Source of the DNA: Saccostrea cucullata
Taxonomy: Eukaryota
Reading direction: 5' to 3'
DNA: 64,000 nt
Assembly (NCBI RefSeq): GCF_032062105.1
Contig: NW_026920771.1
Location: 1 to 64,000, forward strand
Each line of letters begins with the position of its first letter. The stretch's first letter is position 1. Positions 3,001 to 6,000 of this stretch are shown piece by piece. The position numbers are program-made.

Positions 3001-6000
3001 AAATCTATTCCAGGAAAGCTGATGATGGCTTACAGAAAGTCAGCCAAACTGGCCAAGAAATGCATATGACTCCCAGGGATATCTCAAATAAACATATAAT
3101 GGCATATGGTAATTCAATTGTTATGAAGCTAGTATATGTTGTTCATATTTATGAGGGTTTCAGTAGTATCCTGCGGCAAGATGTATTGGCTTAACATACT
3201 TTATTTTCTAGCAAAGATGCTTACAACAAAGATATACTTGGTACTAATAATGAAGTCAAAGTTGATCAAAAAGTCATATTTTTGTTTTTGTACTTTGGTT
3301 TTAGTGGAGATATATATGTGCTTGTGATTCCTCTTTAATAGTTAAATGATTTTTTTTTCAGTGTCAGGTCTGGGGTTTGGTATCCTCTCTGGTGCTTTCT
3401 CAACTGTCAATGTGTTAGCTGATATGGTTGGTCCAGGGACCATTGGTATCCATGGAGATTCAAAATATTTCTTCGTAGCTACAGGTAAATTTCAATGTTT
3501 ACCCCTGATCAGTTTTATTAAACTAAACTATCAAAGATATTCCCTCTCCTTTTCTTCTCTTTCCAGTTAAAAATTGGCTTTATCTGTTGTACTTTCCTTA
3601 TTTGACTAAGAAACAGAAAAAAGTCAATGTTCAAAGATTAAAAAAATATAGCTTTGTATTGAAATCAGACTTGTAGCTTTTTTTGTTTAATTCAATGTTT
3701 TATTATGGAGTTACTAAGACTATGAAAAAAGCAGATAAGTAAACTTTCAAAAGGCCATTTTCAATATAGAATTAGGGTTACCAGTATGTGAAAGATATAC
3801 AAACCATCATATCAATCTGTATAATTGTATTTCTCGTTGCAGCTTTTCTCACACTAAGTTTTATACTTCTCCACACATTCTGGGGGGTCATCTTCTTTAA
3901 TGGACTTGACAAGAGGCGATACCACATGGTGGCGCTGGTGGTGGGATCTCACATGCTTATCTCATGTCTGGTGAGTCACATGCTTATCTTGTGTCTGGTG
4001 AGTCACATGCTTATCTCATGTCTGATGAGTCACATGCTTATCTTGTGTCTGGTGAGTCACCATCGTCTCAAGCCACGGTCCAGAGTCCGCATATAGCTCT
4101 CTCCTACCCGTGGCTGCTTGATCACAAAAAGTGTCGTAATCTTGAATATTTACGCCTTTCTATTGTGAGGTCATATTCAGTCTATCACAAGTTTTGTTTC
4201 CATCGCAATTGAAATCAACAACTGACGTCAACAGTATATAAGAAATATTTCCTTTACTGCGATTGGATATTGAAAGGTTGTGATAAAGTTCATCTTCCGA
4301 CTATGCTTTACTCGCATTGGTCAAAATTTTAATGAGCTACGAAGAATTCTCTCCTCGTTCAACCACGGCCAGAATGGGAGAGGATCGTACATTTTGGCGG
4401 TTGTTTGCGACGGTGGTGAGTCACATGCTTATCTCATGTCTGGTGAGTCACATGCTTATCTCATGTCTGGTGAGTCATATGCTTATCTCATGTCTGGTGA
4501 GTCACATGCTTATCTCATGTCTGGTGAGTCACATGCTTATCTCATGTCTGGTGAGTCATATGCTTATCTCATATCTGGTGAGTCACATGCTTATCTCGTG
4601 TCTGGTGAGTCACATCATGCTTATCTCATGTCTGGTGAGTCACATGCTTATCTCGTGTCTGGTGAGTCACATCATGCTTATCTCATGTCTGGTGAGTCAC
4701 ATGCTTATCTCGTGTCTGGTGAGTCACATCATGCTTATCTCATGTTTGGTGAGTCACATACTTATCTCGTGTCTGGTGAGTCACATGCTTATCTCATGTC
4801 AGGTGAGTCACATGCTTATCTCATGTCTGGTGAGTCACATGCTTATCTCATGTCTGGTGAGTCATATGCTTATCTCATGTCAGGTGAGTCACATGCTTAT
4901 CTCATGTCAGGTGAGTCACATGCTTATCTCATGTCTGGTGAGTGGAGGTTTATATACGTCATGTGCTAAAATACTGGATTTTAACTGATCAATGATTTAT
5001 AATGTAATCCACTCTGAAATTTTGCTTATTTGTCCAGTATGAAATTTTGAAATATTTGAAATCCCTTGTTCCTTAGAAAAGTTGTCAGATGTTAAAAATA
5101 ATATGTGTAATTTAATTTGCATATATGTCAATAGAAATATTTAAGAAATAAACAACGTTATTTAGTGAACATGGCGTTATGAATATATAGCAATTGCTCT
5201 GCTGGCATATTCCATGATGCATGCTGGGGCATCATGGAAAATATGCCAGCAGAGCTATTGCTATTCATAATGCCATGTTCACTAAATAATCATTGTTTAT
5301 TACTTATATTTGCATTCTTTGATGTTGTCAAGAATATCAGAGGAAATCCTGGCTTACAAACGGATGTGGCTTATTGTCATCAGTAATGAAAAACACACAG
5401 CTTTAAAATTAGTATACCTGATCATTGCACCTTTTTCTAATAAATCACAAACAATTAATAAAGTACTAGCCTCTTTTAAAACACAGTTATCTGGATACAA
5501 GCTGTGCCGTCGTCACATTCTCTTAATTTTTGTTTTGATGCAGATGTGACGTCATCGATCAACGTTATTGAAACCCTCTGACAAAAATCAATAATATAAC
5601 CGTTTGATGAAAAAAAAGAATGCTTTAATAATCATTCTAACTCCAGAATGCTTTTCTATATGATTTTAAAATTTTTTCTATTTATTTTTAAGAGCTGAAC
5701 CCGTTCTTGAAATAGACATACAATTAAATTAAAAGAAATTTTGCTTTTTCTGAATGTTTTATCACCCTAGTGTGAAGAGTTGTCGTTCTTTGTACAAATA
5801 TGCAAAAATGTGATAAGAAAAAATAAAAATATGGCAATTCTCTTCAATTTTAAAAAAAAATTATTATACAATTAAATACATTGACCAAAATTAAATTTTT
5901 AAAGATATAAATCAGCAATTTAAAATTGTTCTGAATTTTTTTTCCCCAAAAATTATTATTAAAAACACATTTATTCCTTTTAAGAAACATTTCATATATA

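What the first reader, a model, noticed from the sequence alone, without database searches (positions are those of the whole stretch)
3949..4943. APH1 donor-site minisatellite: ~23 GTGAGT donors in a 9-codon frame repeating the conserved TM6 histidine motif
Seen: the unit is 27 bp and reads VSHMLISCL in frame with the exon. Using the donors at 3998 or 4052 instead of 3971 would add 9 or 27 aa. Read-through into block 2 hits a stop in the inserted element at 4094-4096. Three units have changed to ...tctcatgtCAG|GTGAGT (donors at 4803, 4884, 4911). This creates back-to-back acceptor/donor sites that could act as recursive splice points or define in-frame 27n-nt microexons. Unit variants and a 27+30-bp higher-order repeat suggest the array evolved rather than arising as assembly stutter. 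Established: the His in the APH-1 'SH(L/M)L' TM6 segment is conserved and important for gamma-secretase assembly/activity.
Basis: partly seen in the sequence, partly recalled or inferred. Interest (0 to 1): 0.7.

Follow-up and report, generated by a model that had tools for sequence, protein, structure and literature searches.

The report
Splice-donor minisatellite in APH-1 intron
A 27-base tandem repeat that begins inside an exon of a mollusc-like APH-1 (gamma-secretase subunit) gene copies that exon's splice donor 22 more times into the following intron; this kind of oddity is already known from human genes, and the extra donors most likely go unused.

Summary
A 27-bp minisatellite lies at 3949-4060 and 4414-4943, split by a 353-bp unique insert. 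It starts in the last 22 nt of APH-1 exon 5 and reiterates the donor. There are 23 GTGAGT sites: three in frame, twenty behind a TAG stop, and three mutated to perfect CAG|GTGAGT. The window is not human; it is AT-rich and its closest named exon matches are molluscan.

This is a known class. Minisatellites whose first monomer spans an exon-intron boundary are described for human F7, IFI6, CBS, LMNB2 and PDGFA (PMC1557585). There the most upstream site is used, sometimes with the next one or two.

By analogy, the canonical junction 3970|6528 is most likely dominant. It is the only junction that fits the Pfam profile and a close relative's transcript.

The His-motif repetition is incidental. The same window holds a second boundary-spanning array (73 bp x5.9) at an SPT5 exon donor, with a period that is not a multiple of 3. 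Close relatives lack both arrays at those positions, so both look young.

Use of the in-frame donors, recursive splicing and microexons could not be tested without RNA data; on sequence alone none is excluded. New member of a known kind; interest modest.

The parts
1548..1660 (+). APH-1 exon 1 (ATG at 1548), inferred
   Evidence: Pfam Aph-1 56.4 bits, profile 1-36. tblastn with relative P0004 89%. Donor context AG|GTAATT.
2757..2900 (+). APH-1 exon 2, inferred
   Evidence: Pfam Aph-1 69.3 bits, profile 35-85. P0004 92.6%. Junction contexts.
3014..3108 (+). APH-1 exon 3, inferred
   Evidence: No Pfam match for this exon on its own. P0004 96.9% over 32 aa.
3362..3484 (+). APH-1 exon 4, inferred
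   Evidence: Pfam Aph-1 53.2 bits, profile 111-148. P0004 95.2%.
3843..3970 (+). APH-1 exon 5 (128 nt, ends in phase 0); encodes the equivalents of His171 and His197
   Evidence: Pfam Aph-1 49.3 bits, profile 152-193. Aligns to human APH-1A 162-201 in PDB 5a63_C. P0004 81%.
3971..3976 (+). Authentic (most upstream) donor CTG|GTGAGT
   Evidence: Only this junction gives Pfam profile continuity 193->194 and matches the SCL|TLLNQ junction of the relative's protein P0004.
3949..4060 (+). Array block 1: 4.1 units of 27 bp (2.1 units of a 54-bp higher-order repeat). The first unit is the last 22 nt of exon 5 plus GTGAG.
   Evidence: TRF; unit listing.
3998..4003 (+). In-frame pseudo-donor (+27 nt / +9 aa)
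4025..4030 (+). Inactivated unit junction CTG|ATGAGT (G to A at +1)
4052..4057 (+). In-frame pseudo-donor (+81 nt / +27 aa)
4061..4413 (.). 353-bp unique insert splitting the array. It is flanked by the 11-bp direct repeat TGGTGAGTCAC (4050-4060 and 4414-4424). It carries the in-frame stop TAG at 4094-4096 and shifts the frame by +1.
   Evidence: the repeat finder D3. No second copy in the window. Stop. No Rfam or tRNA match.
4414..4943 (+). Array block 2: 19.3 units, 20 GTGAGT sites, all behind the stop
   Evidence: TRF score 888.
4578..4748 (+). Three copies of a 57-bp (27+30) higher-order unit; the 30-mer carries a 3-nt CAT insertion
   Evidence: Unit listing.
4800..4808 (+). CAG|GTGAGT: perfect-consensus donor juxtaposed to an AG (recursive-site-like)
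4881..4889 (+). CAG|GTGAGT, second such site
4908..4916 (+). CAG|GTGAGT, third such site
6528..6707 (+). APH-1 exon 6 (last coding exon; stop TAA at 6705-6707); acceptor ...ctattgtag|
   Evidence: Pfam Aph-1 profile 194-230, 18.8 bits, below the cut-off. P0004 80% over 56 aa. Sequence.

Best explanation
This is a young, lineage-specific intronic minisatellite. Its first monomer spans the exon 5 / intron 5 boundary of an intact APH-1 gene in a mollusc-like (non-human) genome.

Origin (inferred). A 27-bp segment, made of the last 22 nt of the exon plus GTGAG, was tandemly duplicated. It was then expanded by slippage or unequal exchange to about 23 units, with unit variants and 54-bp and 57-bp higher-order repeats. 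A 353-bp piece of DNA later split it.

Consequence. The authentic donor CTG|GTGAGT is followed by 22 further GTGAGT sites, 17 of them identical to it over all nine positions.

Most likely behaviour (inferred by analogy, not shown). The splicing machinery uses the most upstream site, 3970|6528, so the whole array is removed as intron and APH-1 is made normally. At most there may be minor use of the two in-frame sites at 3998 and 4052. The 20 downstream sites, including the three perfect CAG|GTGAGT sites, would give transcripts with a premature stop. They are expected to be silent or cleared.

Re-encoding of the SHML histidine motif is a by-product of where the duplication happened to start.
For: Shown:
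- Array anatomy.
- Exon 5 and exon 6 abut in the Pfam Aph-1 profile (193|194) only with junction 3970|6528.
- A close relative's 260-aa protein, P0004, has the same junction, SCL|TLLNQ. The six inferred exons sum to 783 nt, which is 260 codons plus the stop.
- The exon's terminal SHMLISCL is ancestral coding sequence: SHMLLSCL in P0004, SHMLISCL in Solemya velum P0007, THMLVSCL in Pomacea P0006. The array therefore derives from the exon, not the reverse.
- The relative's intron-retaining protein P0002 reads SCL then VSQDQNNMK..., with no repeat units after its donor. The array is absent there.
- An independent second array of the same architecture lies at an SPT5 KOW4 exon donor (36131-36560, 73 bp x5.9, five identical AAG|GTAGGAT). 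Its unit is not a multiple of 3.

From the literature (PMC1557585: abstract, Introduction passages, the section on consensus values, and the Discussion read):
- Boundary-spanning minisatellites are known in F7, IFI6 (6-16), CBS, LMNB2 and PDGFA.
- In F7 only the most upstream site is used, although the pseudo-sites are functional.
- Use falls off with distance.
Against: - No transcript of this species could be examined. Two protein searches found no same-species sequence covering exon 5: the best identity was 88% among 16 significant hits of 41 candidates, and the shorter length class gave 2 hits of 13 candidates.
- The analogy is to mammalian cells, and rules in molluscs are untested.
- In the F7 minigenes, pseudo-sites mutated to CAG/gtgagt were used at about 70-90%. 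Three such perfect sites exist here, although they lie 832-940 nt downstream rather than in the adjacent monomer.
- In IFI6 and CBS, two pseudo-sites are used besides the authentic one. Real use of 3998 and 4052 is therefore plausible.
- Predicted RNA structure offers no reason for preferring the first site. All 24 junction 9-mers have unpaired probability 0.0000-0.0009, and the authentic site has 0.0002.
Confidence: 0.7

Rival explanations
1. IFI6/CBS-type alternative donor use. The two in-frame pseudo-donors at 3998 and 4052 are used at an appreciable level. This would give APH-1 isoforms with 9 or 27 extra hydrophobic residues (VSHMLILCL...) inserted six residues after the His197 equivalent, at the end of TM6.
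For: Both sites are identical to the authentic 9-mer and in frame, and would give exons of 155 and 209 nt. No stop occurs before 4094. [quoted passage not shown]
Against: In F7, LMNB2 and PDGFA only the authentic site is used. No database protein carries the repeated motif, which is weak evidence because the species itself seems absent. An insertion next to a residue needed for complex assembly would probably be harmful; that is inference. The effect on the protein was not modelled, because that needs a joined exon model and this step was left out.
Confidence: 0.2
2. Recursive splicing or microexons. The three CAG|GTGAGT sites act as 3' splice sites. One outcome is that the regenerated 5' splice site removes intron 5 in two steps, leaving no trace in mRNA. 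The other is that a downstream unit's donor defines in-frame 27n-nt microexons encoding VSHMLISCL.
For: Acceptor and donor are juxtaposed at 4802|4803, 4883|4884 and 4910|4911. Upstream pyrimidine content is 13 of 20, against 11-13 of 20 for the five real APH-1 acceptors. yTnAy branch-point-like motifs lie 35-42 nt upstream. A GTGAGT 27 nt downstream could define an 'RS-exon' as described for recursive splicing (PMC6224609 and PMC8605326; only the abstract starts in the search listing were seen).
Against: Intron 5 is only 2,557 nt, whereas the listed abstracts describe recursive sites as a feature of long introns. The longest pyrimidine run is 4 nt, against 3-9 nt for real acceptors. The sites are recent point changes inside a young array that is absent in the relative, so they are not conserved. 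No RNA evidence is available.
Confidence: 0.07
3. Regulatory U1-binding array. The 22 extra U1 snRNP sites act together, for example by boosting recognition of the upstream site, suppressing premature polyadenylation in the AT-rich intron, or diverting a tunable fraction of transcripts to decay. Array length would then set APH-1 output.
For: Only the density of strong U1-complementary sites. The idea that nearby 5' splice-site-like sequences influence one another is recalled knowledge, not from a call.
Against: The array is absent in the relative. A second, unrelated array of the same architecture in SPT5 points to a mutational by-product. No expression data are available.
Confidence: 0.05
4. 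Assembly artefact: the array or its length is stutter or mis-assembly.
For: Tandem arrays are error-prone in assemblies. No reads are available to check.
Against: The variants are structured: a 54-bp higher-order repeat at 98% matches, three 57-bp higher-order units, scattered point variants and a unique 353-bp insert. These are not what stutter produces. There are no Ns.
Confidence: 0.03

Closest known systems
Human F7 intron 7 minisatellite (37-bp VNTR whose first monomer spans the exon 7 / IVS7 boundary; PMC1557585)
   Same: The first monomer spans the exon-intron boundary. The authentic donor is followed by pseudo-sites identical in sequence, and the array lies at the very 5' end of the intron.
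   Different: F7 has 5-9 units of 37 bp, with only 4 nt of exon in the unit. Here there are about 23 units of 27 bp, with 22 nt of exon in the unit. The period here is a multiple of 3, the array is split by a 353-bp insert with a stop, three units have become perfect CAG|GTGAGT, and the host is a mollusc-like genome. Splicing was tested for F7 but not here.
Human IFI6 (6-16) intron 2 minisatellite and CBS intron 13 VNTR (as summarised in the Introduction of PMC1557585; the primary IFI6 paper, PMC306954, is not held)
   Same: Many reiterated donors: IFI6 has the authentic site plus 25 pseudo-sites, and CBS has 15-20 repeats. [quoted passage not shown]
   Different: Use of the pseudo-sites is shown there and unknown here. 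Unit lengths and host genes differ.
Human LMNB2 and PDGFA boundary minisatellites (same source)
   Same: Boundary-spanning arrays in which only the authentic donor is used, which is the behaviour judged most likely here.
   Different: Longer units (100 and 81 bp), fewer copies, vertebrate hosts.
Recursive splice sites / ratchet points (PMC8605326, PMC6224609; abstract starts only)
   Same: Three sites have a juxtaposed acceptor and donor, CAG|GTGAGT, with a further donor 27 nt downstream.
   Different: The intron is short (2.6 kb), the sites are not conserved, the pyrimidine tract is only moderate, and there is no RNA evidence.
Intron creation by tandem duplication of an AGGT-containing segment (PMC3265369, PMC4974935; abstract starts only)
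   Same: A tandem duplication that includes splice signals is tolerated because the extra copy is spliced out.
   Different: Here an existing intron is lengthened from its 5' end. No new intron is created.

Membership tests
Boundary-spanning minisatellite with reiterated 5' pseudo-splice sites (F7 / IFI6 / CBS type) | Head-to-tail array of a 10-100 bp unit | tested here: met
   TRF finds a 27-bp period, 4.1 plus 19.3 copies, 90-91% matches.
Boundary-spanning minisatellite with reiterated 5' pseudo-splice sites (F7 / IFI6 / CBS type) | First monomer spans the junction of a genuine coding exon and its intron | tested here: met
   The array starts at 3949, 22 nt before the end of exon 5. The exon is validated by Pfam Aph-1 (49.3 bits, profile 152-193) and by relative P0004.
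Boundary-spanning minisatellite with reiterated 5' pseudo-splice sites (F7 / IFI6 / CBS type) | Authentic donor sequence repeated identically downstream | tested here: met
   18 of 24 unit junctions are CTG|GTGAGT, the authentic one included; 23 of 24 keep GTGAGT.
Boundary-spanning minisatellite with reiterated 5' pseudo-splice sites (F7 / IFI6 / CBS type) | Pseudo-sites silent, or only the first one or two used | not testable with these tools
   No transcript data for this species. Only the relative's canonical junction is seen, and the relative lacks the array.
Boundary-spanning minisatellite with reiterated 5' pseudo-splice sites (F7 / IFI6 / CBS type) | Copy-number polymorphism (VNTR) | not testable with these tools
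   Only a single haplotype is available.
Recursive splice site (ratchet point) | Juxtaposed 3' and 5' splice-site consensus, (Y)nNCAG|GTRAGT | tested here: inconclusive
   CAG|GTGAGT occurs at three sites. Upstream pyrimidines are 13 of 20, similar to the real acceptors (11-13 of 20), but the longest run is only 4.
Recursive splice site (ratchet point) | Lies in a long intron | tested here: not met
   Intron 5 runs from 3971 to 6527, which is 2,557 nt. The requirement for long introns is taken from the abstract starts.
Recursive splice site (ratchet point) | Intermediate junction or lariat evidence | not testable with these tools
   No RNA data.
APH-1 (Pfam PF06105), host gene | Match to the family profile above the gathering score | tested here: met
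   Searched exon by exon: exons 1, 2, 4 and 5 score 56.4, 69.3, 53.2 and 49.3 bits (cut-off 25.6). Exon 6 scores 18.8, below the cut-off, and exon 3 has no match. The matches are colinear, covering profile 1-230. The joined protein was not searched.
APH-1 (Pfam PF06105), host gene | Conserved polar TM histidines (His171, His197 in human numbering) | tested here: met
   Exon-5 residues H10 and H36 align to positions 171 and 197 of PDB 5a63_C. Their importance is taken from a passage of PMC8745412.

The most novel reading that the evidence does not exclude
In this mollusc-like genome, 5' splice sites may be preferred birthplaces of minisatellites. Two of the three arrays scoring above 500 in this 64-kb window start inside a coding exon and run across its donor. 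This would point to a splice-site-linked or transcription-linked mechanism of tandem duplication. The APH-1 array may also not be silent: its three perfect CAG|GTGAGT sites or its two in-frame donors could be used, giving stepwise intron removal or APH-1 isoforms with 9 or 27 extra residues beside the His197 equivalent.
Probability: 0.12. Interest if true: 0.6.

Novelty: new member of a known kind. Interest (0 to 1): 0.3.

Why it matters
It is a natural test of 5' splice-site choice outside mammals. There are 22 pseudo-sites behind the authentic one in a gene that is presumably essential. A premature stop makes any leak into block 2 measurable, and three sites match the consensus perfectly; that is the one condition under which pseudo-sites competed in the F7 minigenes.

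It also matters for annotation. A gene predictor choosing 3998 or 4052 would create a spurious APH-1 with extra VSHMLISCL-type units.

If the second array at SPT5 is more than coincidence, a genome-wide survey could show whether donor sites seed minisatellites.

Tried and rejected
1. Structure masking. RNAplfold-type unpaired probabilities (window 200, span 150) over 3300-5500 do not distinguish the sites. All 24 junction 9-mers score 0.0000-0.0009, and the authentic site scores 0.0002. The array as a whole is more paired (median 0.0032 in block 1 and 0.0019 in block 2) than its flanks (0.0256 and 0.0335). The GGUGAG of each unit is predicted to pair with CUUAUC. Rejected as an explanation of site choice.

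2. Same-species transcripts or proteins. The continuous genomic read-through 3845-4093 was searched against longer proteins (16 hits at E<=0.001 of 41 candidates, best identity 88%) and near-length proteins (2 hits of 13 candidates). None carried repeat units.

3. Aligning the relative's retained intron (P0002) to the window's intron downstream of the array gave no match beyond the exon and chance hits to the repeat.

4. Identity of the 353-bp insert. It has no other copy in the window, no terminal inverted repeat, only short internal repeats, and no Rfam or tRNA match. The 11-bp flanking direct repeat fits a target-site duplication, but in a periodic array some overlap is expected anyway. The alternative is that the 353 bp is the original intron start and block 2 is secondary; it is not excluded.

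5. The primary IFI6 paper (PMC306954) is not held.

6. The idea that the exon end derives from a repeat family was rejected. The unit occurs nowhere else in the window: 20 approximate matches, all inside 3944-4937, and 0 on the - strand. The coding sequence is also conserved in other molluscs.

7. Not run:
- Genome contigs, because it holds prokaryotes only.
- Metagenome contigs and viral contigs, because they are closed.
- Any search, cluster look-up or fold of a joined exon model; that step was left out.
- Paper supplements were not opened.
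Full report
**What the window is.** The window has no N and about 30-43% G+C per 2-kb window, 31-35% over the first 12 kb. I do not take it for human. The APH-1 exons are only 61-88% identical to the best database proteins. The closest named exon matches are molluscan: APH-1 of Pomacea canaliculata at 79% and SPT5 of Pinctada imbricata at 93%. The spliced model was handled exon by exon. 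I never joined exons, so there is no full-length protein search, no exact-sequence cluster look-up and no fold of any isoform.

**The host gene.** Six colinear + strand exons were inferred:
- exon 1, 1548-1660
- exon 2, 2757-2900
- exon 3, 3014-3108
- exon 4, 3362-3484
- exon 5, 3843-3970
- exon 6, 6528-6707

Searched singly against Pfam, exons 1, 2, 4 and 5 match Aph-1 (PF06105) at 56.4, 69.3, 53.2 and 49.3 bits against a cut-off of 25.6. Exon 6 scores 18.8, below the cut-off, and exon 3 has no match. A 260-aa protein of a close relative (P0004, unnamed source) aligns to all six at 80-97%. The six exons sum to 783 nt, which is 260 codons plus the stop (arithmetic). Exon 5 covers profile positions 152-193 and exon 6 starts at 194. 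P0004 reads SCL|TLLNQ across this junction. Junction 3970|6528 is therefore the canonical one. Exon-5 residues 1-40 align to residues 162-201 of human APH-1A in PDB 5a63_C, so its histidines are the equivalents of His171 and His197. A passage of PMC8745412 lists both among conserved residues important for complex formation and activity.

**The observation.**
- Tandem Repeats Finder reports a 27-bp period at 3949-4060 (4.1 copies; as a 54-bp period 2.1 copies at 98% matches) and at 4414-4943 (19.3 copies, 91% matches, score 888).
- There are 23 GTGAGT between 3971 and 4938, out of 31 on the + strand of the whole window and 9 on the - strand.
- Donors 3971, 3998 and 4052 share a frame, giving +9 or +27 aa. 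The other 20 are shifted by +1 and lie behind TAG at 4094-4096.
- Of 24 unit junctions, 18 are CTG|GTGAGT, 3 are CAG|GTGAGT (4803, 4884, 4911), 1 is GTG|, 1 is TTG|, and 1 is dead (CTG|ATGAGT at 4025).
- Three 27+30 higher-order units occupy 4578-4748.
- The unit occurs nowhere else in the window.

**Anatomy and origin.** The unit is the last 22 nt of exon 5 plus GTGAG. The exon end encodes SHMLISCL, which is conserved in other molluscs: SHMLLSCL in P0004, SHMLISCL in Solemya velum, THMLVSCL in Pomacea. The array therefore grew out of the exon-intron junction and not the reverse. A relative's intron-retaining protein (P0002) continues after SCL with VSQDQNNMK... and shows no repeat unit, so the array is absent at that place in the relative and is probably young.

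The two blocks are separated by 353 bp (4061-4413). This piece has no other copy in the window, no Rfam or tRNA match, and is flanked by the 11-bp direct repeat TGGTGAGTCAC. Removing the piece and one copy of the 11-mer restores the unit phase. That fits an insertion with a target-site duplication into a once continuous array, but this is inference and the alternative is not excluded.

**What is known.** The class is described. PMC1557585 (abstract, Introduction passages, the section on consensus values and the Discussion read) states that several genes hold minisatellites whose first monomer spans an exon-intron boundary, so that the donor is reiterated in the intron:
- F7 intron 7: 37 bp, 5-9 units, only the most upstream site used.
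- IFI6/6-16: authentic site plus 25 pseudo-sites, the two nearest pseudo-sites also used.
- CBS intron 13: 15-20 repeats, two pseudo-sites also used.
- LMNB2 and PDGFA: only the authentic site used.

In F7 minigenes the pseudo-sites are functional but lose to the most upstream site. Raising their consensus value to 91 does not change this. Only perfect CAG/gtgagt sites competed, at about 70-90% use, and the effect depends on distance.

**Most likely behaviour here (inference by analogy).** Site 3971 is used and the array is spliced out. The two in-frame sites would give exons of 155 and 209 nt and may leak, as in IFI6 and CBS. The block-2 sites would give exons of 573-1,095 nt with a premature stop.

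Against a confident 'silent' verdict, the three perfect CAG|GTGAGT sites meet the one condition under which pseudo-sites competed in F7, though they lie 832-940 nt away. Predicted RNA structure does not favour the first site: all 24 junction 9-mers have unpaired probability 0.0000-0.0009.

**Recursive splicing and microexons.** By a crude measure the three CAG sites are no worse as acceptors than the gene's real ones. They have 13 of 20 upstream pyrimidines against 11-13 of 20, and branch-point-like motifs lie 35-42 nt upstream. The idea is therefore not excluded by sequence. However, the intron is only 2,557 nt, the sites are recent changes in a young array, and nothing can be tested without RNA.

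**A second case in the same window.** An SPT5 homologue lies at about 29446-39334 on the + strand (tblastn with P0021). Its KOW4 exon (36071-36196; PF23291, 57.5 bits against a cut-off of 27) ends in AAG|GTAGGAT. A 73-bp unit, made of the last 66 nt of the exon plus 7 nt of intron, is repeated 5.9 times at 96% matches (36131-36560). This gives five identical donors at 36197, 36270, 36343, 36416 and 36489. The relative's read-through (P0020) does not show the unit. Seventy-three is not a multiple of 3, so in-frame coding of a motif is not what sustains such arrays.

At a minimum TRF score of 30, only three arrays in the window score above 500: APH-1 at 888, 11805-12411 at 789, and SPT5 at 783. 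The third looks like a dispersed element and no coding exon was recognised in it by eye; it was not searched. So 2 of 3 span a coding donor.

I made a rough post-hoc estimate, assuming 50-100 donors in the window. I counted 5 in APH-1 and at least 19 in SPT5, from 20 distinct tblastn blocks. Under that assumption, chance gives at least two such arrays with a probability of about 0.01-0.05. That is suggestive and no more.

**Verdict.** It is a new member of a known kind. Its function is most likely none, and the claimed link to the histidine motif is incidental.

**What stayed unchecked.**
- Transcripts, population variation, raw reads and sister-species genomic sequence.
- The closed collections metagenome contigs and viral contigs.
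- The primary IFI6 paper, which is not held.
- Paper supplements.
- Any analysis needing a joined exon model.

Noticed in passing
window 36131-36560 (exon 36071-36196, + strand): A second boundary-spanning minisatellite. A 73-bp unit is repeated 5.9 times at 96% matches. Its first monomer is the last 66 nt of an SPT5 KOW4 exon plus 7 nt of intron. There are five identical AAG|GTAGGAT donors, the sixth unit is degenerate and has no donor, and the unit is not a multiple of 3. It is absent in a relative's read-through protein, P0020.
   Followed up: partly
window 29446-39334, + strand: An SPT5 (transcription elongation factor) homologue with at least 20 tblastn blocks against P0021. KOW2 and KOW motifs lie at 34644-34976. 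APH-1 and SPT5 are neighbours on the same strand.
   Followed up: partly
window 37442-37509: A 21-bp x3.2 repeat (72% matches) inside the SPT5 C-terminal coding region. It looks like the heptad-type C-terminal repeat of SPT5; that name is recalled and was not tested.
   Followed up: no
window 11805-12411 (related short repeats from about 11243): A 165-bp x3.6 array (TRF score 789) with the motif AAGATTTTTA recurring at 11243, 11504, 11708 and 12061. It looks like a dispersed or satellite-type element. No coding exon was recognised by eye and no family search was run.
   Followed up: partly
window 5135-5311: An inverted repeat inside APH-1 intron 5, about 180 nt at 83% identity between 5142-5311 and its reverse complement at 5135-5306. 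It is a MITE-like palindrome.
   Followed up: no
window 7765-7929 and 8227-8511, - strand: Two copies of the same ORF-like segment (LSSYKFTYLVHNIICDEYIESRSVNSSKR...) downstream of APH-1. This is probably a repeated element.
   Followed up: no
window 15733-17112, - strand: The longest open frame in the window (460 aa) has no Pfam match at E<=0.01. An open frame at 10603-10959 (-) has a weak S1-domain match, 20.1 bits, below the cut-off of 22.
   Followed up: no
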